Position numbers and translations under genes: made by a program | Origin: Stenomitos frigidus ULC029 | GTDB lineage: Bacteria > Cyanobacteriota > Cyanobacteriia > Leptolyngbyales > Leptolyngbyaceae | Length of the DNA: 64,000 nt | NCBI GenBank assembly: GCA_042919575.1 | Contig: CP170648.1 | Location: 2,619,515 to 2,683,514, forward strand | Reading direction: 5' to 3' | Shown here: in pieces, positions 438-53,935 of the stretch | How the letters are laid out: every line of letters starts with the position of its first letter | Position numbering within the stretch: the stretch's first letter is position 1 | The notes under the pieces: generated by a model | Databases searched by the model: none | The model's input: only the letters and a program-made list of their open reading frames with translations | Told to the model about the DNA's origin: nothing

Positions 438-473
438 TTTGGTTCATTTTTGGGGTGTAGTAGTGATGATAGG

Positions 474-605
474 CGATCGACTGACCCACATCCCATCTGC
501 ACCCATCTACACACCGCAATTAATTGACGCAAGCTCGATCGTTTAAGCTTCTGTAGGCTCTCTTGCGTTGAAGGCAGACGAAGCAAAAACGCCTTAAAGC
601 GATCG
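474..605. repeat. 132-nt dispersed repeat, copy A, bounded by HIP1 sites
   Basis: About 91% identical to 3135-3267. Core ...ctgacccacatcc...taattgacgcaagctcgatcgtt...gcttctgtaggctctcttgcgttgaaggcagacgaagc... Confidence 0.7.
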
Positions 606-638
606 CTCGTTTACCGCTCTTTAGAAATCTACAATGGC

Positions 639-3134: not shown

Positions 3135-3267
3135 GCGATCGACTGACCCACATCCGATCCGCACCGATCCACACACTGCAAGTAATTGACGCAAGCTCGA
3201 TCGTTCAGGCTTCTGTAGGCTCTCTTGCGTTGAAGGCAGACGAAGCGAAAACGTCCTAAGGCGATCG
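3135..3267. repeat. 132-nt dispersed repeat, copy A'
   Basis: About 91% identical to 474-605. Confidence 0.7.
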
Positions 3268-3285
3268 CGGTGCTGATTCAACGTT

Positions 3286-3731: not shown

Positions 3732-6377
3732 TTGATCCAAGCTGAAACCCTTGAACTTTTGGACTGGTCGCGGCTTTGCCAGCACCTCTCGACCTTTGCC
3801 GCTACCAAGTTAGGCGCGATCGCGGCTCGTCGTCTCCGTATCCCCGACACACAAGCAGAAACGCTAACCCTGCTGGCACAAACGCAGGAAGTGTATGCGC
3901 TTGAAAATCGTCTCAGCACCGGGCTAAAGTTTGACGGCATTACCGACATTGGCGAGTCATTAGAACGGGCAGAACGCCGGGCATTGCTGTCGGGCGAAGA
4001 ACTGCTAGCGATCGCGACCACACTCGCTGGTATGCGTCAGCTCCGGCGCGTCATCGACAACCAACCCGATCTCTTGGTGCTAAACGCGCTGATGCAAGAC
4101 CTGCGAACCTATCCAGAGTTGGAGCAAGAAATTCATCGCTGCATTGACGATCGTGGGCAAGTTGCCGATCGTGCGACACCCAAGTTGACAGGCATTCGAG
4201 AGCAGCAAAAACAATTGCGCGATCGCGTTTACAGCACCTTACAAAGTATCTTGCAGCGCAAAGCAAACGCGGTGCAGGAAAGCTTGATCACCCAGCGGGA
4301 AGGACGCTTTGTCATCCCCGTTAAAGCACCGCAAAAAGACGCGATTCCGGGCATTGTCCACGACACTTCTATGAGCGGTGCAACGCTTTACATCGAGCCA
4401 CAAGCCACCGTCAACTTAAACAATCAACTACGCCAGCTTCAGCGCCAGGAACAGGCGGAAGAAGAAGCCGTGCGTCAAGCGCTGACTGATCAGGTCGCCG
4501 TCGTGAAGCCTGATTTAGAGAGACTGCTGGCGATCGCGACGACCCTTGACCTCGCCACAGCCCGCGCTCGTTACAGTTTGTGGCTAGAAGCAAATCCGCC
4601 CCGATTTGTCACCAGGAACCCGGAGAGTGCGTCTGTCACACCCGAATCGATCGTCCTTCGCAATCTGCGGCATCCGCTCCTCATCTGGCAGCAGCAGCAT
4701 GAGCAGGGTCGCCCCGTCGTGCCGATCGATCTCGTCATCCAGCCACACATTCGCGTCGTTGCGATTACTGGACCCAACACTGGCGGCAAAACCGTTACCC
4801 TCAAAACCCTTGGTCTCGCTGTACTGATGGCAAAGGTCGGGCTATATGTGCCTGCCCGCGAACCCGTTGAGTTGCCCTGGTTCGACCAGGTGCTGGCAGA
4901 CATTGGTGATGAGCAGTCCCTAGAGCAAAGCCTGTCTACCTTTTCAGGACACATCCGGCGGATTAGTCGCATTTTGGCAGCGTTGGAGGAGAGGGGAGAG
5001 GAGAGAGGAGAGAGGGGTGAAAAGGAAGAAAGAGTAGAGGGAGCAGAGGAGGCGATGGGGACATGGGGGGATGATGAGCAAGACCGAACCGCAACTCAAA
5101 ACTTAGAACTCAAAACTCAAAACTCAAAACTCAAAACTCCTCTACCCCACTCCCTCGTCCTTCTCGACGAAGTTGGCGCTGGCACCGATCCCTCTGAAGG
5201 CAGTGCGTTGGCGATCGCCCTACTGAACCACTTGGCTGATCATGCAGGCTTGACTATTGCAACGACTCACTTTGGGGAACTCAAAGCGCTGAAATATCAG
5301 GACGATCGGTTTGAGAATGCCTCTGTCGAGTTTGATGATGTGTTGCTATCGCCTACCTATCGTCTGCTGTGGGGCATTCCAGGACGATCGAATGCGTTGA
5401 CGATCGCTCGTCGGTTGGGGTTGGATGCAGACGTGGTGGAGCAAGCGCAAACTCTGGTCGGTGGTGCTTCAGAAGATGTGAATCAGGTGATTGCTGGTCT
5501 CGAAGCCCAGCGTCGTCGCCAAGAAACCAAGTCCCAGGAGGCAGCACAGCTCTTAGAAAGTGCTGAACGTCTCCATCGCGAACTGTCTCGGAAAGCGGTG
5601 TCACTGAAGGAGCGAGAGCAGTCCTTACAGCAGGCGCAAGAACAGGCAGTCCAAGCAGCGATCGCTCAGGCAAAGAGTGAAATTGCCCAGGTCATCCGTC
5701 AGCTACAGCAGGGACCCATCTCCGCACAAGCGGCACAGCAGGCAACCGATTCACTGCATCAGCTTGCCGAGAATCGTCTGCCCTCACGCCAACCCAAACC
5801 GCCCAAGCCAGGGTTTCGTCCTCAGGTGGGCGATCGCGTTCGCATTCCGCGTCTCGGTCAAACGGCTGAAGTGCTAACAGCTCCCAACGATGATGAGGAA
5901 ATTACCGTTCGCTTTGGGCTAATGAAAATGACCGTGCCGATCGACGACGTGGAATCGTTAGATGGGGAAAAAGCGGTTAAAAAGCAGTCAGCAGTCAGCA
6001 GTCAGCCAGCAGCAGTGAGCGGTCAGGGCGCAGGCATCAGAAGTCAGGAGCCACTCAAAACTCAAAACTTAAGCCTTAAACCTTCAAACGCGCCGCCTGA
6101 TACTCAAAACCCCACTTCCGATACCCCTATCATCCGCACGTCTCACAATACGATCGACATTCGGGGCAGCCGCGTTGCCGATGCCGAGCCGATGATGGAG
6201 CAGGCGATCGCCCAGGCGTATGAGAGTGGCGTGCTATGGATTATTCACGGGCATGGGACGGGCAAATTGCGTCAAGGCGTACATGCTTTCTTGCAACACC
6301 ATCCTCAAGTCGAACGGTATGCATTGGCAAGCCGTGCGGATGGCGGTGCAGGTGTAACGTTGGCTTACCTGCATTAA
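3732..6377 (+). CDS. mutS2: endonuclease MutS2 (MutS domain plus C-terminal Smr domain), TTG start
   Basis: 881 aa. Walker A GPNTGGKT, then LLDEVGAGTDP. C-terminal Smr motif IHGHGTGKLR. Carries an in-frame low-complexity insertion at about 4984-5145. Confidence 0.9.
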   Translation: MIQAETLELLDWSRLCQHLSTFAATKLGAIAARRLRIPDTQAETLTLLAQTQEVYALENRLSTGLKFDGITDIGESLERAERRALLSGEELLAIATTLAGMRQLRRVIDNQPDLLVLNALMQDLRTYPELEQEIHRCIDDRGQVADRATPKLTGIREQQKQLRDRVYSTLQSILQRKANAVQESLITQREGRFVIPVKAPQKDAIPGIVHDTSMSGATLYIEPQATVNLNNQLRQLQRQEQAEEEAVRQALTDQVAVVKPDLERLLAIATTLDLATARARYSLWLEANPPRFVTRNPESASVTPESIVLRNLRHPLLIWQQQHEQGRPVVPIDLVIQPHIRVVAITGPNTGGKTVTLKTLGLAVLMAKVGLYVPAREPVELPWFDQVLADIGDEQSLEQSLSTFSGHIRRISRILAALEERGEERGERGEKEERVEGAEEAMGTWGDDEQDRTATQNLELKTQNSKLKTPLPHSLVLLDEVGAGTDPSEGSALAIALLNHLADHAGLTIATTHFGELKALKYQDDRFENASVEFDDVLLSPTYRLLWGIPGRSNALTIARRLGLDADVVEQAQTLVGGASEDVNQVIAGLEAQRRRQETKSQEAAQLLESAERLHRELSRKAVSLKEREQSLQQAQEQAVQAAIAQAKSEIAQVIRQLQQGPISAQAAQQATDSLHQLAENRLPSRQPKPPKPGFRPQVGDRVRIPRLGQTAEVLTAPNDDEEITVRFGLMKMTVPIDDVESLDGEKAVKKQSAVSSQPAAVSGQGAGIRSQEPLKTQNLSLKPSNAPPDTQNPTSDTPIIRTSHNTIDIRGSRVADAEPMMEQAIAQAYESGVLWIIHGHGTGKLRQGVHAFLQHHPQVERYALASRADGGAGVTLAYLH
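4984..5145 (+). repeat. in-frame composite repeat inside mutS2: GA-rich tract then (AACTCAAAAC/AAAACTC) x about 5
   Basis: gaggagaggggagaggagagaggagagagg... then aactcaaaacttagaactcaaaactcaaaactcaaaactcaaaactcc. Encodes EERGEERGERGE...LKTQNSKLKT between Walker A and Walker B. Confidence 0.8.
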
Positions 6378-22005: not shown

Positions 22006-23751
22006 ATGCAAGTACAGGATCTGCTAGAGCGTTACCAGAACGGCGAACGAAACTTTGCTCAGATTGACCTTAGCAGCGCCAACCTAAGTGGAGCCAACCT
22101 GCGTGATGCTGACCTCACAGGCGCTGACATGACAGGTGCTAATTTAAGCTGGGCTTTTTTGAGCCGCGCTAATTTGACAGGAGCCTGCCTGAGGCGGGCA
22201 GACCTTCGCAGTGCGTCACTCAATAACGCCGTGCTGAACCAGGCAATCCTGAGCGGTGCTAATCTCAGCAAAGCAGATTTGCGGATGGCGCAGCTAGAAA
22301 CGGCTGATCTAAACTGGGCAGTGCTTCAGGAAGCTGACCTTAGTGGCGCTAACCTCCAGGCAGCCAAGCTCGATCAGGTCAACCTTGAACGGGCAAAGTT
22401 AAGTAACAGTTGCCTGATTGCAGCAGAATTAATGGAAGCCAACCTGCGTCGTGCCAACCTCACTAGCGCCCAACTCGATCGCGCAAACCTGCGGGAGGCA
22501 CATCTAGAAGAAGCAAACCTGCGAGAGGCATCACTGATTGGCGCAAACTTGATCGAAGCCAACTTAAACGGCGTGTATCTACGACAGGCTAATCTCACCG
22601 AAGCAGACCTGCATCGCGTTGTCTTGACTGGGGCAGACATGAGTGAAGCAATTCTTACTAATGCTGACCTCAGCCGAGCCAATCTGACAGGAGCCTACTT
22701 GCTCAAAGCCAGTATGAGTAAAGCCCAGCTTTTACGGGCAAACCTGCAAGATGTCTATCTCTTAAGGGCGGATCTCAACGGAGCGAACCTGCGTGGAGCC
22801 GATCTGCGACGAGCGGATTTAAGTGGAGCATATCTCAGCGATACGTCCTTGAGCGAAGCCGACCTCAGCGATGCTTACTTGCTGGAAAGCCATCTCATTC
22901 GCACCAATTTAGACGGGGCACAGATGACCGGCTGCTGCATTGCCAATTGGCACCTGGAGAACACAGATTGCTCTAGAATCAACTGCCGCTACGTGTTTAC
23001 TGGGTTTGACTACACGACTAAAAACCCTGCCGATCGCTACCCAGTCGGGCGCGATCTGGAAGCAGGCGAACTAGAGCAGCATTATCAGCAAGACAATGCC
23101 GTGGTTGAGGTCTATTTTACCGAAGCGCCGAATTGGGAAGCCTTTGCGTTTACATTAGCGCAGCTTGATCTTGAAGAAAACGCGCTGGGACTAACGATAA
23201 AAGCTTATAAGCCATCAGACGATAACTACCTGATTCAGTTAAAGGCAACGCGCCCAGTGAATGCCAAAGCGGTAACGCGACGCATCTTTCAGCTTTATCC
23301 AAAAATTTTGCAGCAGTTGCTCACGCATCGAACCAAAATTCTGAGCCTGTTAGCGATCGCGCCTCAGACCACTCAACCCAACTTGTCCCTGGAACCGTCC
23401 CAAGTTAACCGATCCGCACCAGAGACACCCTCGAACGATCGCCGCATCCGGCTTTACCAGGAAGTTGTGCGGCAAATCCAGCACATTATGATGACTCAGG
23501 CTCCTGAACAATTTGTGCAGAGTGTGCAGCAACTACTTGAATATCTCAACCAGCAGGGCATTGCGACAGAAGCGATCCAGAAGAAAGTGATTAGTCAGGT
23601 CATTACACAGCGCGCTAAACAAGACAAACGCTTTTGCGACCACATCCAGCGCTGGGAGAAAACGGCTCCTGACGCTGCCCGATCGTCCACTGTGGGCCAG
23701 GCAATGCGTTTTGCGATCGCGCAGTTGTGGGCTGACACCAAACAAAGCTAA
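22006..23751 (+). CDS. pentapeptide-repeat protein with unique C-terminal domain
   Basis: About 300 aa of ANLxx repeats after MQVQDLLERYQNGERNF, then a roughly 250-aa non-repeat domain. Confidence 0.8.
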   Translation: MQVQDLLERYQNGERNFAQIDLSSANLSGANLRDADLTGADMTGANLSWAFLSRANLTGACLRRADLRSASLNNAVLNQAILSGANLSKADLRMAQLETADLNWAVLQEADLSGANLQAAKLDQVNLERAKLSNSCLIAAELMEANLRRANLTSAQLDRANLREAHLEEANLREASLIGANLIEANLNGVYLRQANLTEADLHRVVLTGADMSEAILTNADLSRANLTGAYLLKASMSKAQLLRANLQDVYLLRADLNGANLRGADLRRADLSGAYLSDTSLSEADLSDAYLLESHLIRTNLDGAQMTGCCIANWHLENTDCSRINCRYVFTGFDYTTKNPADRYPVGRDLEAGELEQHYQQDNAVVEVYFTEAPNWEAFAFTLAQLDLEENALGLTIKAYKPSDDNYLIQLKATRPVNAKAVTRRIFQLYPKILQQLLTHRTKILSLLAIAPQTTQPNLSLEPSQVNRSAPETPSNDRRIRLYQEVVRQIQHIMMTQAPEQFVQSVQQLLEYLNQQGIATEAIQKKVISQVITQRAKQDKRFCDHIQRWEKTAPDAARSSTVGQAMRFAIAQLWADTKQS

Positions 23752-28864: not shown

Positions 28865-30835
28865 TCACTCTGCAACTTGCCAGACACGAAGGGTGCGATC
28901 GCTGCTGCCGCTGACGATCGTTTTGCCATCGGCACTGAGGGCAATGGTGTTCACCGAGTTACTATGTCCAGACAGAACGATCGCCGCTGCTTGGGTGTTA
29001 TTTAAGTCCCATAGTTTTAGGGTGCCATCCCAACTGCCGCTGATGAGGGTCGTGCCATCGAGGGTAAATTTTAGTGCGCTCACTGTCCAGGAGTGTCCTG
29101 GTAAGGTACGCAGCAAGCGCCCTGTTTGTGTGCTCCAAAGCTTGATGGTGCGATCGTCCCCACCTGTCGCCAGCATTTGACTATCCAGGCTGAAGGCGAC
29201 TGCCTGCACCGTGCCGACGTGATCGCCCAAGGTGTAGCACATCTGAATAGTGAGATTTGCTTCGGTTGTCCACAAACAGACCGTGTGATCGGCGCTGGCG
29301 CTGGCAAGCAACTGTCCATTCGGACTAAAGGCAATCGCTGTGACATTCAGCCGATGTGCTTTGAGTGTGCAAAGTTCTTCTCGTGTCTGAAGATTCCAAA
29401 GCTTGATGGTTTTATCGCGGCTGGCGCTGGCAAGCATTCGTCCGCTGGGGGTAAACGCGATCGCGGTGACGGCTTGCGTGTGCTGACCCAAAACCTCGCT
29501 ACGACCAGAGATATCGAGATACCACTTTCGCGTCAGTACAACCGTTCGATCCTGTCCTCCAGAGGCAATGGTTGCGCCATCGGGGCTAAAGGCGATCGCA
29601 CGAATCGCCAGCACATGATCAAGCACAGCCGTGATCACATCGCCCGTTTGCAAATTCCAGAAGCGGATTGTTTTGTCTTCACTACTGCTGGCGACGATCG
29701 GGCGATTGGGACTGATGGCAACGGCATTGACGCAGGCAGTATGCCCCATAAAGGTGTGAGCGTAATGCCAGGAGGCGATCCGGGGAAAGTTTTGAATGAT
29801 GAGTTTTGAGTTTTGAGTTGAAAGAGTTGTTAGGTTCTGGCTGCTAGTTTTTAGTAGCAGATTTTCATCATTCTCACTCCCGACTCCTGACTCCTGAATT
29901 GCCCTCATTACTGCATCTGCTGATTGAAACCGCTTGCTCAAGGCATTTTGCAGGAGGCGATCGAGAATCATAGCAAGGCGATCGCTGACTGGGTTTGGCA
30001 CATACTGCCGCCAAGCCCAGTCATTGTTAGACAGATCGAAGAGGTCAAACGGCGATAAATCCGTCAGCAGATGAATACAGGTAACGCCCAGGCTGTAGAG
30101 ATCGCTGGCAAAAACGGCTTTACCCCGTGCCTGTTCTGGCGCGACATACTCAGCGCTACCGATGCTGGTGCCTGTTTTGAGGCGATCGCTCAGTTGCACT
30201 AATTTCGCCGCACCAAAATCTACTAAGACTAACTGAGAAGACTCCCTATCCCGTTGCCAGATCAGATTAGCGGGTTTGATATCGCGGTGAATGATTTGGC
30301 GATCGTGAATAAATTTGAGAATCGGCAGCACCTGATCCAACAGCCGCCAGATAAAGGCTTCTGTCACCGCGCCCTGTGCCAAAACCTGTTCAAGGTTCTG
30401 TCCGTCGATAAATTCTTGCACCAGGTAAAGCCGTTGATCGTCCTCAAACGCATTCAACAAAGCCGGAATCTGTGGATAGCTACCTAGTTCTCCAAGTCGC
30501 TGTGCCTCTTGATGAAAAAGAGCGATCGCCTCCGGTGCGGGCATCACCTGATGTGGAACAAACTGTTTGATGACACAAAAAGCGGTATCGGAAGCACGTG
30601 TGTGAGTTGCGTCACCATTGGCTTCTAACTCTAGATCGTCTGCCTTCTGCCCTCTGCCTTCTGCCTCTAGCTGCTCATCGATCGCCAAAAATGTCCGCCC
30701 AAAGCCCCCTTGACCAAGCAGTTGCACAGCACGATAGCGACGTTTCAACTGCAAGCAAAAACCGCAGGCTTGACAGCACTCAGCGCTATCAAGATTCTGC
30801 GGTACGTTGCATGTTGGGTTGAGGCAATAGCTCAT
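28865..30835 (-). CDS. Ser/Thr protein kinase fused to a seven-blade WD40 domain
   Basis: N-terminal Cys-rich segment, kinase motifs (GQGGFGRTF, HRDIKPANL, DFG), then WD40 repeats (GHT..V.AVAFSPDG...WD). Linker carries a composite repeat insertion. Confidence 0.85.
   Translation of the reverse strand: MSYCLNPTCNVPQNLDSAECCQACGFCLQLKRRYRAVQLLGQGGFGRTFLAIDEQLEAEGRGQKADDLELEANGDATHTRASDTAFCVIKQFVPHQVMPAPEAIALFHQEAQRLGELGSYPQIPALLNAFEDDQRLYLVQEFIDGQNLEQVLAQGAVTEAFIWRLLDQVLPILKFIHDRQIIHRDIKPANLIWQRDRESSQLVLVDFGAAKLVQLSDRLKTGTSIGSAEYVAPEQARGKAVFASDLYSLGVTCIHLLTDLSPFDLFDLSNNDWAWRQYVPNPVSDRLAMILDRLLQNALSKRFQSADAVMRAIQESGVGSENDENLLLKTSSQNLTTLSTQNSKLIIQNFPRIASWHYAHTFMGHTACVNAVAISPNRPIVASSSEDKTIRFWNLQTGDVITAVLDHVLAIRAIAFSPDGATIASGGQDRTVVLTRKWYLDISGRSEVLGQHTQAVTAIAFTPSGRMLASASRDKTIKLWNLQTREELCTLKAHRLNVTAIAFSPNGQLLASASADHTVCLWTTEANLTIQMCYTLGDHVGTVQAVAFSLDSQMLATGGDDRTIKLWSTQTGRLLRTLPGHSWTVSALKFTLDGTTLISGSWDGTLKLWDLNNTQAAAIVLSGHSNSVNTIALSADGKTIVSGSSDRTLRVWQVAE
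29790..29910 (-). repeat. in-frame composite repeat inside the kinase-WD40 linker (coding strand GA-rich then AACTCAAAACTCAAAACTC)
   Basis: Plus strand reads gagttttgagttttgagttg ... ctcactcccgactcctgactcc. Translated as ...QESGVGSENDEN...LSTQNSKLIIQN. Confidence 0.75.
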
Positions 30836-34883: not shown

Positions 34884-36194
34884 TCATGATGCCTTTACCG
34901 GGTCAACCGGACATTGAATCGCCCCGTTCGTTGACTGAAAGACCAACGGTGGAACCTTTGCAGCTTGCTGAGACGCACAAATCGCTGTGACGACCTTGTT
35001 GGTTGGCTGCGCGATCGCAACGGTTGCTGTATAGCTTTTTAAGCCTTCCGCTTTTGGAATGGCGGTAAGTTGAGCTTGATTGTTGTTGGGTATTGTGAGT
35101 TTGTAGATGTAGTCGCTATGAGTGGCGATCGGGACAGCCGCAAACCGCTCCAGCTCTTCTAAGGTGGCAGCAAAGCGAGTGTTCTGGCGATAGAATGCCT
35201 GCTGTGCCTTATTCATTGTGTCCAGGTAGTTTCTAGCCGCTGTCTGCTGCTGGTCGCGCGTACGCTCTACCTTGAACTGACTGGACATCTGGCTGCTAGA
35301 AGCAATCGCAGAGGATTGATTACCCGCTTTTCGTTCCGCACCACCCCAGGCATAGGAGTGGGCAAGGAGCGCGACCGCTCCACCCGCAGCAAAGGACACC
35401 ACTGTGACAAGTGCTGACACCTTAAGGTAGTTAACCGACCGATCACTCGTTGGTGAGTCGTTGAGTGCTTCTTGGCAAGAGCGATCGCGCCAGGGCAACC
35501 GCGTACTGATCTGCTGGCGTACGTCATTCCACGTTGCCAAAACATGAGGCAACGGCGCTTGAGGCTGTGAAGCTTGAGAAGATAAGTCTGGAGAAGATGA
35601 GTCTTGAGACTGCGAATTTTGAGCACGTAAAGCTTGAAGGTTTGCTTTAAACTTGCTCCAGCGTTGCTTCCACGGATCAAATTGGGTTGAGCGATCGCTC
35701 GAAGAATCCGTCATAGCACTAGAATCGGAGGCGTTAGAATCCGAGCTATGAGAATCTGGGGCGTTAAAATCTGGGACGTTAGAATCTGGGGCGCTAGGAC
35801 TAGACTCCGAAGCGCTAGAGGGTATCTCTAAGATTTCAGCTACGGGCGATTGAAACTCTGGAGCGCTAGAAGGTATCTCTAAAGTTTCAGCTACGGGCGA
35901 TCGAGGTACTGCAAACATTTCAACCCAGTAAGGCTCTTCCTCGCCAAGTCGCTGCCCATACACCTGCACGTACTGAATCGAAGACACTGCTAGACGAAGG
36001 ATGCCTCGCTGCACAAACGTTACCAGTGTTTGGGCATTTAACGGTCGGGCAGCATTGAAAAACACATGCAGACAGTCCCCATCCACAAGGGTTTCTGCTA
36101 TTACTCCCTGTGGCTCTAGCGTGGCATTGATCAGTGCCGCAATCGCCTGTGGATCACCCTGTTTTGCAAGTTCAAGTAGAGGCGGCTGAGTCAT
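34884..36194 (-). CDS. fusion protein: unknown N-domain, Ser/Pro/Asp-rich tandem-repeat linker, TM helix, and a type IV pilin-like G/H-family C-domain
   Basis: C-terminal MNKAQQAFYRQNTRFAATLEELE...YIYKL resembles the cyanobacterial 'type IV pilin-like G/H family' proteins. Linker encoded by nucleotide-level tandem repeats at about 35700-35900. Confidence 0.5.
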   Translation of the reverse strand: MTQPPLLELAKQGDPQAIAALINATLEPQGVIAETLVDGDCLHVFFNAARPLNAQTLVTFVQRGILRLAVSSIQYVQVYGQRLGEEEPYWVEMFAVPRSPVAETLEIPSSAPEFQSPVAEILEIPSSASESSPSAPDSNVPDFNAPDSHSSDSNASDSSAMTDSSSDRSTQFDPWKQRWSKFKANLQALRAQNSQSQDSSSPDLSSQASQPQAPLPHVLATWNDVRQQISTRLPWRDRSCQEALNDSPTSDRSVNYLKVSALVTVVSFAAGGAVALLAHSYAWGGAERKAGNQSSAIASSSQMSSQFKVERTRDQQQTAARNYLDTMNKAQQAFYRQNTRFAATLEELERFAAVPIATHSDYIYKLTIPNNNQAQLTAIPKAEGLKSYTATVAIAQPTNKVVTAICASQQAAKVPPLVFQSTNGAIQCPVDPVKAS

Positions 36195-47211: not shown

Positions 47212-48207
47212 TTAGTCATGCGTCGAGCCGTCGGGCATAGTTGCACCCTGGAGGTTTGCACCACTGAGATTCGCGCTGCTGAGTTCAGCTTTTGCCAGGT
47301 TAGCGTTGGTCAGGTTGGCATCGCGGAGATCAGCACGACCGAGGTAGGCTTCAATGAGGCTTGCATCGGTCAAATTGACACTTTGGAGTGTAGTGCGGCT
47401 CATACTTGCTCGATTGAGCCGCGATCGACACATAATTGCCTGAGCCAGGTTGGCTTTGCTCAGGTTGGCATCGGTCAGGTTAGCATCCGTCAGATTAACG
47501 TTTTTGAGTGTTGCTTCGGTCAAGTTAGCGCGCTCTAGCTTGGCACTAACCATGTTTGCCTGACTCAAATCAGCTTCGGTCAGATTAGCATCAGTCAAAA
47601 AGCAACTTTGCAGCGTGGCTCCGATTAAGTTTGCTTCGGTAAGATTGGCTTCTCGCAGACTGGTTTCAGTGAGGTTAGCACGACGAAGGTCGGCTTTGGT
47701 CAAATCAGCTCCGCTAAAGTTTGCACCGCGCAAGTCAGCATTGCGGAGGTCAACACCGCGCAAATTGGCACCTTCATAGCAGCGTTTTTCATAGCGCAGG
47801 TTAGCTCCACGCAGGCAGGCTCCGCGCAGGTTGGCGCTGCCGAGATTGACGTTTCGCAAATCAGCGCTGATCAGGTTGGCATCGAGCAGGATTGCCAGGG
47901 TGATATCGGCACCGCGTAGATCAGCGCCATAGAGGATGGCACCATGTAAGTCGGCATCGCGCAGTTTGGCGCTCATCAGATCAGCTTGACTCAGATTGGC
48001 TCCACTAAGACGGGTTCCAGCCAGGTTTGCCTTGCTCAGGTTGGCGCGGTTGAGGTATGCCAGAACCAGATTTGCGCCACGTAGATCGGTGCCTGTGAGG
48101 TCTGCGCCAATGAGATCGGCTCCGCCCAGATCTGCGCCACAAAGGTTTTCGCCCCGAAAGTCGGTTTCACCTGCCTGGTAGCGTTGCAGTAGCTCGATCG
48201 CGTCCAT
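47212..48207 (-). CDS. pentapeptide-repeat protein
   Basis: MDAIELLQRYQAGETDF, then ADL/ANLxx repeats through to the C-terminus. Confidence 0.8.
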   Translation of the reverse strand: MDAIELLQRYQAGETDFRGENLCGADLGGADLIGADLTGTDLRGANLVLAYLNRANLSKANLAGTRLSGANLSQADLMSAKLRDADLHGAILYGADLRGADITLAILLDANLISADLRNVNLGSANLRGACLRGANLRYEKRCYEGANLRGVDLRNADLRGANFSGADLTKADLRRANLTETSLREANLTEANLIGATLQSCFLTDANLTEADLSQANMVSAKLERANLTEATLKNVNLTDANLTDANLSKANLAQAIMCRSRLNRASMSRTTLQSVNLTDASLIEAYLGRADLRDANLTNANLAKAELSSANLSGANLQGATMPDGSTHD

Positions 48208-51910: not shown

Positions 51911-53935
51911 ATGAACCGTTCCCAGACCGCTCCCATGACTCAGCAAGAGCGTCAAACGCTCAGTCGTGTGATTGATTATAGTCAAGCAACATCCATTCCA
52001 GCGCTGTGGGCGATCGCGGCGCAACGCTTCAGCCAAAACACTGCCGTTTACGATCCCCATGCCGAGCCAGCGCTTAAGCTGACCTACGCTGCCCTTTACC
52101 AGCAAATGCAGCAGTTCGCGATCGGGCTACAGGCGTTAGGCGTACAGCCCGGTGAGCACATCGCCTTATTCTCCGATAACAACCCCCGCTGGCCCGTTGC
52201 TGACCAGGGCATCATGATGGCAGGTGCCGCAAATGCTGTGCGTGGCTCTCAGGCAGACCGCGACGAACTGCTGTTTATTCTGAAACACAGCGACAGCATC
52301 GGACTGGTCGTGCAAGACCAGGCAACGTTAACAAAGCTGGCTCAAGGTCTGGAGTCCCTGCCGCTACGGTTTATCGTACTGCTGACTGATGAAATGCCAT
52401 CGCCAGTCGGTACGATCAAGACGCTGAATTTTTCGCAATTGATGCAGACGGGCACAGGTCATACCCTTCAGCCTGTAAAGCTAGAACGTGACACGCTGGC
52501 AACCTTGATGTATACCTCTGGCACCTCTGGAATGCCAAAAGGGGTCATGCTGAGCCACAACAATTTACTGTCTCAAGTGACAGCAGCAGCCTCGGTCGTC
52601 AATCCCCAAAATGGGCGTGTGTTGAGCATTCTACCGATCTGGCACTGCTACGAGCGCACGTTTGAATACTTTACCTTTGCCTATGGCTGTACGCAGGCAT
52701 ACACCAACATTCGCTACGTCAAGAAAGACCTAAAGGATTTCAAGCCAAATTATATGGTGGCAGTGCCCCGGCTGTGGGAGTCCATTTACGAGGGCGTGCA
52801 AAAGCAGTTTCGAGAGCAACCTGCCAGTAAGCAGCGGTTGGTGAACTTCTTTTTGGGCGTGAGCCATCGTTACATTGCGGCACGTCGGCTGGTGGAGGGT
52901 GTGAGTTTGGAAAAGCTCCAGCCATCGATCGCCCAACGCCTTGCCGCTGCTGTCCAAGCTGCCGTTTTTTGGTTGCCCCATCAACTGGGCGATCGCCTGG
53001 TGTATAAAAAGGTGCGAGCAGGCATTGGGGGAGAGGTTGCCTTTTTTGTCAGTGGTGGAGGCTCGATCGCTGAACACCTGGAAGATTTTTTTGAAGTCGT
53101 TGGTATTCCGATTTTGGGCGGCTATGGGCTGACCGAAACCGCGCCTATTACCCATGTGCGTCGCCCCTGGCGCAACATTCGGGGTGGTGATGGGCAACCC
53201 CTACGCGACACCGAAACCCGCATTGTCGATCTTGAAACCCGCCAACCGCTGCCACTGCTGAAGCAAGGGCTAGTCCTGATTCGTGAGCCTCAGGTCATGC
53301 AGGGCTACTACAAAAACCCGGAAGCAACAGCTAAGGCGATCGATGCCGATGGCTGGTTCAACACAGGCGATTTGGGTTGGGTGACGGAGCAAGGCGATCT
53401 AATCATCACCGGACGCGCTAAAGACACGATCGTTCTGACGAGCGGTGAAAATATCGAACCGCAGCCGATTGAAGATGCCTGCCTCCGCAGCGCTTACATT
53501 GACCAAATCATGCTCGTTGGTCAGGATCAAAAAGTGTTGGGAGCACTAATTGTGCCCAACCTAGAGGCATTGCAAAAGTGGGCAGCCGCGCAGAATCTTG
53601 AGCTGCAACTGCCTGGGGAGGAGGAAGGAGAGAGGAGAGAGGAGAGAGAGAGGAGTCAGAAGCCAGAATCAACTCAAAACGCTTCACCCCTCACCCCTTA
53701 CTCCTTACCCCTGACCCTGAACAGCAAACCCGTTCAAGACCTAGTACGGCAGGAACTCAACCGAGAAGTGAAGAATCGTCCGGGCTATCGGGCAGACGAT
53801 CGCATTGGTCCGTTTCGACTGCTACTAGAGCCTTTTACGATCGACAATGGGCTGCTGACACAAACGCTAAAAATCCGGCGCAATGTCGTGATGGAACGCT
53901 ACCAGGGTATGATTAACGAGATGTTCGTTGGCTGA
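51911..53935 (+). CDS. aas: AMP-dependent synthetase/ligase (long-chain acyl-CoA/acyl-ACP synthetase-like)
   Basis: AMP-binding motif MYTSGTSGMPKGV, plus YGLTETAP and GWFNTGDLG. Carries an in-frame composite repeat at 53614-53720. Confidence 0.8.
   Translation: MNRSQTAPMTQQERQTLSRVIDYSQATSIPALWAIAAQRFSQNTAVYDPHAEPALKLTYAALYQQMQQFAIGLQALGVQPGEHIALFSDNNPRWPVADQGIMMAGAANAVRGSQADRDELLFILKHSDSIGLVVQDQATLTKLAQGLESLPLRFIVLLTDEMPSPVGTIKTLNFSQLMQTGTGHTLQPVKLERDTLATLMYTSGTSGMPKGVMLSHNNLLSQVTAAASVVNPQNGRVLSILPIWHCYERTFEYFTFAYGCTQAYTNIRYVKKDLKDFKPNYMVAVPRLWESIYEGVQKQFREQPASKQRLVNFFLGVSHRYIAARRLVEGVSLEKLQPSIAQRLAAAVQAAVFWLPHQLGDRLVYKKVRAGIGGEVAFFVSGGGSIAEHLEDFFEVVGIPILGGYGLTETAPITHVRRPWRNIRGGDGQPLRDTETRIVDLETRQPLPLLKQGLVLIREPQVMQGYYKNPEATAKAIDADGWFNTGDLGWVTEQGDLIITGRAKDTIVLTSGENIEPQPIEDACLRSAYIDQIMLVGQDQKVLGALIVPNLEALQKWAAAQNLELQLPGEEEGERREERERSQKPESTQNASPLTPYSLPLTLNSKPVQDLVRQELNREVKNRPGYRADDRIGPFRLLLEPFTIDNGLLTQTLKIRRNVVMERYQGMINEMFVG
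53614..53720 (+). repeat. in-frame composite repeat inside aas (GA-rich, then aactcaaaac, then C-rich ccctcacccc...)
   Basis: ggaggaggaaggagagaggagagaggagagagagaggag...caactcaaaacgcttcacccctcaccccttactccttacccctgaccc. Encodes EEEGERREERERSQ...STQNASPLTPYSLPLTL. Confidence 0.75.

What the first reader, a model, noticed from the sequence alone, without database searches (positions are those of the whole stretch)
53614..53720. Third in-frame copy of the GA-tract/AACTCAAAAC/C-rich element, inside the acyl-CoA/ACP synthetase gene
ggaggaggaaggagagaggagagaggagagagagaggag, then caactcaaaacgc, then ttcacccctcaccccttactccttacccctgaccc. The element lies in a surface loop between conserved AMP-binding blocks. 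It encodes PGEEEGERREERERSQKPESTQNASPLTPYSLPLTLNS. It has one heptamer unit rather than five, so repeat number is variable between copies.
Basis: seen in the sequence. Interest (0 to 1): 0.55.

Follow-up and report, generated by a model that had tools for sequence, protein, structure and literature searches.

The report
Translated heptamer repeat array in enzyme loop
A 105-base run of 7-base tandem repeats sits in frame in a flexible surface loop of a cyanobacterial fatty-acid-activating enzyme; it is one of several such fast-changing, translated repeat arrays in this lineage's housekeeping genes, most likely tolerated repeat DNA and not a working part of the enzyme.

Summary
Window 53615-53719 (+) is a single in-phase array of 15 heptanucleotide units (35 codons, G569-L603). 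It lies in the AMP-binding enzyme gene 51911-53935 of Stenomitos frigidus ULC029. It has a purine block (41 nt pure purine), one AACTCAA(AAC) unit and a C-rich CACCCCT-type block.

It lies between two confident helices of the C-terminal domain, in a low-confidence loop. The loop is hypervariable: 51 residues between W557 and Q609 here, against a median of 31 (range 12-42) in 109 other orthologues. Only the Stenomitos clade carries heptamer arrays there, and the units differ by species (GGAGTCA, GGCGTCA, CAGCGGT, GGAGGCA; CCCCACA, TGCCTCA).

The same block order recurs in MutS2 across many genera, in other genes and in intergenic DNA. The arms are not complementary, and there are no fixed ends.

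Best reading: an STRR-like heptamer minisatellite, evolving by slippage and probably by exchange between loci. Selection keeps it in frame and in sense orientation, and it is translated into a disordered peptide. It resembles the NeuO heptamer VNTR and the in-frame Rickettsia palindromic elements, but is a member of neither. The constant purine-to-pyrimidine polarity is unexplained.

The parts
51911..53935 (+). Host gene: AMP-binding (ANL) enzyme, long-chain fatty-acid ligase type, 674 aa
   Evidence: Intact ORF. Pfam AMP-binding 36-467 and AMP-binding_C_3 505-553. 100% identical to P0001, 'AMP-dependent synthetase/ligase [Stenomitos frigidus ULC029]'. NCBIfam hits are all below curated cut-offs.
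53615..53719 (+). Whole in-phase heptanucleotide array: 15 units, 105 nt, codons 569-603 (GEEEGERREERERSQKPESTQNASPLTPYSLPLTL)
   Evidence: Heptamer-register layout. Codon-phase arithmetic. TRF period-7 rows at 53618-53652 and 53684-53717.
53615..53655 (+). 5' purine block: 41 nt without a pyrimidine (units GGGGAGG AGGAAGG AGAGAGG AGAGAGG AGAGAGA GAGGAG.)
   Evidence: 0 expected by chance.
53657..53670 (+). Two transitional CAGNNNN units (CAGAAGC CAGAATC), in phase with both neighbours
   Evidence: The same CAGxxxx unit type is seen in L003, L005 and L007 at the orthologous site.
53671..53680 (+). AACTCAA core unit plus AAC (1.4 units), read as T-Q-N
   Evidence: Exact CAACTCAAAAC match. The same unit is repeated 2-7 times at 5093-5139, 6053-6069 and 29788-29819(-).
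53685..53719 (+). 3' C-rich block (CACCCCT CACCCCT TACTCCT TACCCCT GACCCTG)
4985..5165 (+). Related composite array in MutS2, just before the Walker-B strand: GGAGAGG units, irregular purine-rich stretch, AACTCAA x6.7, CT-rich tail
   Evidence: The site is hypervariable with the same polarity in 70 orthologues and at DNA level in L201 and L202.
5983..6110 (+). Second MutS2 array, in the linker before the Smr domain: CAGCAGT x6, ACTCAAA x2.4, CCTTAA-type units
   Evidence: Kovacikia minuta MutS2 is frameshifted inside this array.
29788..29897 (-). Array in the kinase-WD40 linker of the Ser/Thr kinase gene: CAGGAGT x3, then AACTCAA x3 (coding strand)
30639..30666 (-). AGGCAGA x4 array (coding strand) in the N-terminal kinase region, encoding EAEGRGQKA
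   Evidence: The same GGCAGAA family is seen in L004, L006, L172, L199 and L201.

Best explanation
The segment is a hypervariable heptanucleotide minisatellite of the cyanobacterial STRR kind. It occupies a structurally permissive loop of the C-terminal domain of the enzyme and is translated through.

Shown here: it is one in-phase array of 7-nt units arranged in three variant blocks. It arose within the Stenomitos clade. Its units and unit numbers turn over faster than the rest of the gene.

Inferred: growth and turnover happen by replication slippage or unequal exchange within blocks, plus occasional exchange with other arrays of the same few heptamer families elsewhere in the genome. Selection then filters the products in two ways. 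Only net length changes of 3n survive, because the catalytic C-terminal lysine region lies downstream. Only the sense orientation survives, because all three frames of these units are stop-free in sense, whereas the reverse complement of NNNNTCA units contains TGA. The encoded 35 residues are a disordered appendage with no sequence-specific role in catalysis.
For: Period 7 is the only abundant tandem period in the window, and all 6 strong period-7 arrays lie in ORFs. The register is continuous across the three blocks, and A occupies unit position 2 in the last 10 of the 15 units. The orthologous loop in L001 and L003-L008 holds arrays with different units in the same order, and L002 holds a contracted version. 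None of the 72 other orthologous loci has an array there. Loop identity falls from 93% to 74% and 46% while flank identity only falls from 94/88% to about 90%. Loop peptides share no sequence, length or charge: 17-40 aa, net charge -3 to +1. The AlphaFold2 model gives low confidence in the segment (pLDDT below 50 at 584-596) between confident helices 551-560 and 606-621. A few heptamer families (GGCAGAA, GGAGTCA, CAGCGGT, AACTCAA, CCCCTCA/CCCCACA) recur at many sites and in many genomes, in genes and between them. Period-7 arrays are roughly 5-10 times denser in the Stenomitos clade loci than in other relatives. Heptamer SSRs are known to be over-represented in cyanobacteria (PMC4692102, PMC4679880). 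A translated heptamer VNTR obeying a multiple-of-three rule is established for NeuO (PMC3046976).
Against: Slippage alone does not explain why the purine-rich block always precedes the pyrimidine-rich block, nor why AACTCAA sits between them at several unrelated sites. Blocks in this particular copy are short and imperfect (at most 2 identical units in a row), so current slippage here may be slow. The closest relative, L001, differs only by a 3-nt indel and a few substitutions. Only 64 kb of this genome and about 0.7 Mb of related DNA were examined. Translation of the segment is inferred from the ORF, not observed.
Confidence: 0.65

Rival explanations
1. It is a discrete mobile cassette (like a Rickettsia palindromic element or a MITE) made of purine block, AACTCAA and C-rich block. 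It inserts into genes in frame and afterwards decays or expands locally.
For: The same three-part order occurs at independent sites: the Aas loop, MutS2 site 1, and metagenomic cyanobacterial genes in L116, L162, L172 and L199. Within one genome (Lyngbya sp. HA4199-MV5) the Aas and MutS2 sites share the same unit variants, GGCAGRA and CCCCACA, and the window genome has GA-type units at both sites. The Aas site was colonised only in the Stenomitos clade.
Against: There is no conserved sequence or ends between copies: 74% over 46 nt of low complexity. I saw no terminal inverted repeats or target duplication on inspection. The arms are not complementary: fold z-scores are -1.2 and -0.6, and own-site arm pairing (-21.7 kcal/mol) is no better than cross-site pairing (-26.3). 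Unit co-variation between loci is absent in other genomes such as BL-A-14 and S. rutilans. Five of 10 cyanobacterial AACTCAA arrays have no flanking blocks.
Confidence: 0.15
2. It is a contingency (phase-variation) switch. Gain or loss of one 7-nt unit shifts the frame and turns the enzyme off by removing the C-terminal catalytic region, as in the neuO poly-psi VNTR.
For: The unit length is not a multiple of 3. All three frames are open across the arrays. Relatives carry long perfect arrays at this very site: GGGAGTC x10 in L008, CAGCGGT x5 in L006, CCCCACA x5 in L004. One natural out-of-frame allele exists at a heptamer array: Kovacikia minuta MutS2 is split inside site 2, leaving Smr as a separate ORF. 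NeuO is a precedent, and its unit AAGACTC is one base from AAAACTC, a rotation of AACTCAA (PMC3046976).
Against: All Stenomitos-clade Aas genes examined are in frame: 11 proteins and the 7 loci that span the loop. L008's contig ends inside the array. The array here is imperfect and short. The site is far from the N-terminus, where phase-variable SSRs concentrate (statement in PMC4692102 citing Lin and Kussell). The Kovacikia case could be a sequencing error in a C-run or G-run. No population data are available.
Confidence: 0.1
3. The peptide, or the nucleic-acid structure (hairpin, purine-pyrimidine triplex or G-quadruplex), is itself functional. It could be a selected disordered linker or a regulator of transcription or translation of the gene.
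For: The model predicts a helix for the Glu/Arg-rich part (residues 570-581). The 41-nt homopurine tract could in principle form non-B DNA (inference). The polarity is conserved across sites.
Against: No conservation of peptide sequence, length or charge among close relatives. Many orthologues lack the segment. Folding is no better than shuffles, and the arms do not co-vary. No Rfam family is matched anywhere in the window.
Confidence: 0.05

Closest known systems
Cyanobacterial STRR sequences (short tandemly repeated repetitive heptanucleotides; Mazel et al. 1990, from my own knowledge), including their presence inside the RNase P RNA gene (Vioque 1997, NAR 25:3471; title seen in the reference list of PMC2858038)
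   Same: Tandem 7-nt units. A few unit families are dispersed at many genomic sites. They are tolerated inside a functional gene at a variable, non-essential position. CAGCAGT at MutS2 site 2 is one base from STRR3 CAACAGT (STRR3 sequence from memory).
   Different: STRRs are described mainly in heterocyst-forming Nostocales and mainly between genes. Here the host is a non-heterocystous Leptolyngbya-like lineage and the units differ. In the 64-kb window all six strong arrays lie inside protein-coding genes and are translated; related loci also hold intergenic arrays. They are built as polar multi-block composites.
neuO poly-psi VNTR of E. coli K1 prophage CUS-3 (PMC3046976)
   Same: A heptanucleotide tandem repeat inside a coding region. 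Three units encode one heptad. The protein is full length only when the frame is kept. The encoded part is disordered. The unit AAGACTC differs by one base from AAAACTC, a rotation of AACTCAA, and the heptad RLKTQDS resembles KLKTQNS.
   Different: NeuO has one homogeneous array of 2-93 units at the extreme 5' end, with proven high-frequency on/off switching and an activity effect. Here the array is short, heterogeneous, multi-block and internal, and no switching or activity effect is shown.
[quoted passage not shown] 2000 and 2002, as summarised in PMC10969869)
   Same: Repeated DNA inserted in frame into unrelated housekeeping genes, translated, and placed where the protein fold tolerates it.
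   Different: RPEs are about 150-bp elements with a conserved sequence, a conserved encoded peptide and palindromic structure. Here there is no conserved sequence, no palindrome and no defined ends.
Over-represented heptameric SSRs in Nostoc/Xanthomonas (GGGGA(C/T)T, GGGAATC; PMC4692102) and TAACTGA repeats of Beggiatoaceae and Cyanobacteria (PMC4679880)
   Same: Lineage-specific proliferation of particular heptamer repeats with variable copy number. The stop-codon content of the unit dictates which orientation can overlap a coding region.
   Different: Those repeats are reported as over-represented between genes and under-represented within them, and as single-unit arrays. The arrays here are intragenic composites.

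Membership tests
STRR / heptanucleotide simple-sequence repeats of cyanobacteria | Head-to-tail tandem repeats with a 7-nt unit | tested here: met
   TRF period-7 rows, own period scan and register layout of 15 in-phase units.
STRR / heptanucleotide simple-sequence repeats of cyanobacteria | A few unit families dispersed at many sites of the genome | tested here: met
   GGCAGAA, GGAGTCA, CAGCGGT/CAGCAGT, AACTCAA and CCCCTCA/CCCCACA recur in the window and in L003-L008, L074, L172, L199 and L201. Only partial genomes were sampled.
STRR / heptanucleotide simple-sequence repeats of cyanobacteria | Unit identical to a published STRR family (STRR1 CCCCAGT, STRR2 TTGGTCA, STRR3 CAACAGT; sequences from memory) | tested here: not met
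   Units in 53615-53719 are GAGAGGA-type, CAGAAGC, AACTCAA and CACCCCT. The nearest in the window is CAGCAGT at 5983-6026, one mismatch from STRR3.
STRR / heptanucleotide simple-sequence repeats of cyanobacteria | Typical location between genes | tested here: not met
   All 6 strong period-7 arrays of the window lie in ORFs. Intergenic arrays do exist in relatives.
RPE / MITE-type in-frame mobile element | In-frame insertion in conserved genes at a structurally tolerated place | tested here: met
RPE / MITE-type in-frame mobile element | Conserved element sequence and encoded peptide across copies | tested here: not met
   Only 74% identity over 46 nt of GA-rich sequence between the two best copies. 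Orthologous sites carry different units.
RPE / MITE-type in-frame mobile element | Palindromic arms or a stable hairpin | tested here: not met
   z = -1.2 and -0.6 against shuffles. Own-arm duplexes are no better than cross-site duplexes.
RPE / MITE-type in-frame mobile element | Terminal inverted repeats and target-site duplication | tested here: inconclusive
   None seen by inspection of the junctions. No empty site from a near-identical strain was available.
Translated heptanucleotide VNTR / contingency locus (neuO type) | 7-nt repeats within the CDS, translated as heptads when the frame is kept | tested here: met
   ORF continuity and codon phase. Translation itself is inferred.
Translated heptanucleotide VNTR / contingency locus (neuO type) | Copy-number polymorphism between isolates | tested here: met
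   Between species and MAGs only: loop lengths of 51-105 nt and different unit counts. Polymorphism within populations was not tested.
Translated heptanucleotide VNTR / contingency locus (neuO type) | Reversible on/off switching by frameshift at high frequency | not testable with these tools
   All Aas orthologues seen are in frame. One frameshifted MutS2 allele lies at a heptamer array in Kovacikia.
ANL superfamily long-chain acyl-CoA/ACP synthetase (host protein) | AMP-binding domain plus C-terminal domain with an invariant lysine | tested here: met
   Pfam PF00501 and PF23562. K654 is invariant in 62 sequences.
ANL superfamily long-chain acyl-CoA/ACP synthetase (host protein) | Acyl-ACP (as opposed to acyl-CoA) synthetase specificity | not tested
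   Source names say long-chain fatty-acid-CoA ligase. NCBIfam hits are below cut-offs. The Aas assignment rests on outside knowledge of cyanobacterial homologues.

The most novel reading that the evidence does not exclude
Leptolyngbya-like cyanobacteria may carry a previously undescribed class of coding-compatible, dispersed composite minisatellites with a fixed order: purine-rich heptamer block, AACTCAA block, C-rich heptamer block. In this reading they spread between unlinked housekeeping genes and are homogenised within a genome. Their polarity survives reverse-complementing: on either strand the G-rich array runs 5' to 3' towards the centre. That would record a specific DNA transaction, for example templated or slippage synthesis at both 3' ends of a break before rejoining, and not ordinary replication slippage.
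Probability: 0.15. Interest if true: 0.7.

Novelty: new variant of a known kind. Interest (0 to 1): 0.45.

Why it matters
For annotation, such segments should not be read as domains, inteins, frameshifts or assembly errors. They also explain contig breaks, as in L008, and split genes, as in Kovacikia MutS2.

For biology, the result shows that heptamer repeats, known mostly as intergenic curiosities of Nostocales, can colonise core enzymes in another cyanobacterial lineage. There they create rapidly changing disordered peptides and possible frameshift hot spots in non-essential genes such as aas and mutS2. The strict purine-to-pyrimidine polarity and the shared unit variants at unlinked loci are concrete, testable clues to how these repeats arise and spread, which I have not seen explained.

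Tried and rejected
1. Hairpin or MITE structure. RNA folds of both composite copies were no better than dinucleotide shuffles. An 11 x 11 matrix of duplex energies between 5' and 3' blocks showed that own-site pairs (-21.7 kcal/mol) are no better than cross-site pairs (-26.3).

2. Known RNA families. There are no Rfam matches in the window.

3. AACTCAA as a diagnostic of the element. A metagenome scan for (AACTCAA)x3 hit many non-cyanobacterial contigs with no flank polarity overall (purine fraction 0.54 upstream, 0.49 downstream). Only the HIP1-rich subset was informative.

4. Enrichment of AACTCAA arrays in long sense ORFs. 51% are spanned by at least 200 stop-free codons, against 56% for random positions, which is uninformative.

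5. Local-seed origin, in which the arrays grow from the flanking PGEE and PLTL codons. This may apply to the two outer blocks, but it cannot explain the central AACTCAA or the same order at unrelated sites.

6. Literature. Searches for the motif and for translated heptamer arrays in cyanobacteria found no description of this arrangement. One search failed on a term-length limit, and Vioque 1997 is not held.

7. Solved structures. Sequence matches stop before the loop (query residues up to about 560), so placement rests on the AlphaFold2 model.
Full report
OBSERVATION. A pure-purine run covers 53615-53655 (41 nt). Thirty-base purine runs occur at only two places in the 64-kb window, here and at 4985-5017, and never in 100 dinucleotide-preserving shuffles. 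CAACTCAAAAC is exact at 53670-53680. With one mismatch allowed the motif occurs 14 times against 1.69 expected. Tandem Repeats Finder reports period-7 arrays at 53618-53652 (GAGGAGA x5.1) and 53684-53717 (TCACCCC x4.9). The segment lies in the intact 674-aa ORF 51911..53935, and the quoted peptide is part of its translation.

HOST AND PLACE. The ORF is 100% identical to an 'AMP-dependent synthetase/ligase' of a Stenomitos frigidus ULC029 genome. It has Pfam AMP-binding (36-467) and AMP-binding_C_3 (505-553). NCBIfam gives only sub-threshold long-chain fatty-acid-CoA-ligase matches. The acyl-ACP-synthetase name rests on outside knowledge and was not tested.

An AlphaFold2 model built from 62 orthologues (mean pLDDT 82.9) places the segment between helix 551-560 and helix 606-621. 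Block means there are 60, 46 and 53, and pLDDT is below 50 at 584-596. A low-confidence helix is predicted for the Glu/Arg-rich part (570-581). The invariant C-terminal lysine K654 lies downstream, so a frameshift in the segment would remove it.

IS IT AN INSERTION? In an alignment of 120 orthologues the segment falls in a hypervariable loop between 'EALQKWAxxQ' and 'LxSKPVQDL'. The number of residues between W557 and Q609 is 51 here and 33-56 in the 11 Stenomitos-clade proteins. It is 12-42 (median 31) in the other 109. Several orthologues have almost no loop.

WHAT THE DNA IS. Laid out in 7-nt register from the AACTCAA unit, 53615-53719 is one continuous array of 15 units:
GGGGAGG AGGAAGG AGAGAGG AGAGAGG AGAGAGA GAGGAGT CAGAAGC CAGAATC AACTCAA AACGCTT CACCCCT CACCCCT TACTCCT TACCCCT GACCCTG.
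It begins on the first base of codon 569 and ends on the last base of codon 603. So the three 'parts' are variant blocks of one heptamer minisatellite.

At the orthologous place, relatives of the Stenomitos clade carry the same block order but other units:
- L003: GGAGTCA and GAAAGCA, then AACTCAA, then CTCTCTC/CACCCCT.
- L004: GGAGGCA/GAAGGCA x5, then CCCCACA x5.
- L005: GGCGTCA x4, then AACTCAA-type x4.
- L006: CAGCGGT x5, then ACTAACA x3.
- L007: CAGCGGT-type x5, then AACTCAA x2, then CACGCCT/CATGCCT x5.
- L008: GGGAGTC x10, then AACTCAA, where the contig ends.
- L002: a contracted 51-nt version.
None of the 72 more distant orthologous loci has a period-7 array in this loop.

The loop diverges faster than the gene. 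At about 90% flank identity, loop identity is 74% (L003) or 46% with a 51-nt deletion (L002). The nearest relative, L001, differs by a 3-nt indel and a few substitutions. The encoded peptides share neither sequence, length (17-40 aa) nor net charge (-3 to +1).

OTHER COPIES. In the window, period 7 is the only abundant tandem period, and all six strong arrays are inside ORFs. They lie in MutS2 (4985-5165 and 5983-6110), in a Ser/Thr-kinase/WD40 gene (29788-29897 and 30639-30666, minus strand) and in this gene.

The MutS2 site just before the Walker-B strand is hypervariable in 70 orthologues, down to 69% identity and across several genera. It almost always has the same polarity: Gly/Glu/Arg/Ala-rich, often 'TQNSKLKTQNS', then Pro/Ser/His/Thr-rich. 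DNA from two of them confirms heptamer blocks:
- Lyngbya sp. HA4199-MV5: GGCAGRA x~20, then AACTCAAAAC, then CCCCACA x5.
- Leptothermofonsia: GGAGCCA x4, then AACTCAG/AACTCAA x4, then a C-rich block.

A metagenome scan for (AACTCAA)x3 returned mostly non-cyanobacterial contigs without flank polarity. On the 10 arrays from HIP1-rich cyanobacterial contigs, five to six show purine-rich heptamers upstream and C-rich heptamers downstream. Four of these (L116, L162, L172, L199) are read through by long ORFs (275-834 codons) in different genes. Composite arrays with the same polarity also occur between genes (L004 2683-2779; L059). Period-7 arrays are about 5-10 times denser in Stenomitos-clade loci than in other relatives.

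WHAT IT IS NOT. It is not a hairpin element. Folds are no better than shuffles (z -1.2 and -0.6). The 5' block of a site pairs no better with its own 3' block than with 3' blocks of other sites (means -21.7 and -26.3 kcal/mol). Units of the two arms do not co-vary (GGAGGCA with CCCCACA; CAGCGGT with TGCCTCA). No Rfam family matches in the window. Copies share no fixed sequence or ends, and I saw no terminal repeats or target duplications.

MECHANISM. The best-supported account is an STRR-like heptamer minisatellite in a permissive loop.
- Shown: the array structure, lineage-specific origin, rapid block-wise turnover, placement in a low-confidence loop, and lack of peptide conservation.
- Inferred: slippage or unequal exchange as the motor.
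- Inferred: selection for net 3n length. Fifteen units make 35 codons, and every orthologue examined across the loop is in frame.
- Inferred: selection for sense orientation. These units are stop-free in all three sense frames, whereas the complement of NNNNTCA units contains TGA.
NeuO of E. coli K1 shows that such a translated heptamer array behaves this way: unit AAGACTC, heptad RLKTQDS, disordered, full length only at multiples of three (PMC3046976). Its unit is one base from a rotation of AACTCAA.

Frameshifts at these arrays do occur. In the complete genome of Kovacikia minuta CCNUW1 the MutS2 frame changes inside the purine-rich block of the second array, and Smr is left as a separate 72-aa ORF. 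A sequencing error is not excluded.

UNEXPLAINED.
(i) Polarity. The purine-rich block always lies 5' of the pyrimidine-rich block: 6 adjacent pairs against 0 in 730 kb, of which 4 are the same orthologous loop. Counting sites with AACTCAA in between, there are some 7-8 independent sites. This order is unchanged by reverse-complementing, holds in intergenic DNA, and is not required by stop-codon avoidance.
(ii) Shared variants. Unlinked loci of one genome can share unit variants: HA4199-MV5 has GGCAGRA and CCCCACA at both Aas and MutS2, and the window genome has GA-type units at both. Other genomes do not show this.
Both points suggest exchange between arrays or a common source, which simple local slippage does not provide.

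COMPARISON AND NOVELTY. Heptamer SSRs are known to be over-represented in cyanobacteria, chiefly between genes (PMC4692102, PMC4679880). STRRs are known inside the RNase P RNA gene (Vioque 1997, cited in PMC2858038). In-frame repeat insertions are known from Rickettsia (PMC10969869). A translated heptamer VNTR is known from NeuO. My searches found no description of polar, multi-block, in-phase heptamer arrays translated within core enzymes of Leptolyngbya-like cyanobacteria, but the library is incomplete. I rate it a new variant of a known kind. As a single locus it is of moderate interest. The lineage-wide pattern is more interesting.

Noticed in passing
window 4985-5165 (MutS2 aa 410-482); proteins P0121-P0190: The loop just before the MutS2 Walker-B strand is hypervariable (about 8 to about 90 aa) across many genera. 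It keeps a constant polarity: acidic/Gly-rich, then TQNSKLKTQNS-like, then Pro/Ser/His-rich.
   Followed up: partly
L203 3860-4130 (Kovacikia minuta CCNUW1, CP083582.1): MutS2 is split. The reading frame changes inside the purine-rich heptamer block of the pre-Smr linker, and the Smr domain is a separate 72-aa ORF. This is either a natural frameshift allele or a sequencing error.
   Followed up: partly
L004 4711-4795 and L201 (same genome, Lyngbya sp. HA4199-MV5): Two unlinked genes (Aas and MutS2) carry the same unit variants, GGCAGRA followed by CCCCACA x5. Two further arrays of the GGCAGRR family lie near the Aas gene (L004 1931-1960 and 2737-2779, reverse orientation).
   Followed up: partly
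L008 4700-4796: The contig of Leptolyngbya sp. ES-bin-22 ends inside the Aas array (GGGAGTC x10, then AACTCAAAACTCAA). The repeats apparently break short-read assemblies.
   Followed up: no
L081-L200 (metagenome contigs): (AACTCAA)x3 or longer arrays (up to 33 units in L193) occur in many non-cyanobacterial contigs with GC from 0.26 to 0.71. About half are spanned by long sense ORFs. The unit is one base from the neuO VNTR unit AAGACTC.
   Followed up: partly
window 30639-30666 (-): An AGGCAGA x4 array encodes EAEGRGQKA inside the N-terminal part of the kinase domain of the Ser/Thr-kinase/WD40 protein. This is an insertion within a catalytic domain and not in a linker.
   Followed up: no
window 473-606 and 3135-3268: Two copies of a 134-nt direct repeat, 91% identical and 2.66 kb apart (family D5). 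Their nature was not examined.
   Followed up: no
window 35576-35901: A cluster of 15-nt tandem repeats (x2.3 and x5.2) followed by a 51-nt unit repeated 1.9 times at 89% identity. Its coding status was not examined.
   Followed up: no
window 22054-22829 and 47294-48061: Long series of 15-nt-spaced repeats (families D1-D3, I2, I3). This is the pattern expected for pentapeptide-repeat protein genes, on opposite strands.
   Followed up: no
L059 5474-5554: A GAAAAAC-type heptamer array is followed after 5 nt by an array that is about 80% its reverse complement. Unlike the Aas and MutS2 arrays, this one is a real imperfect inverted repeat.
   Followed up: no
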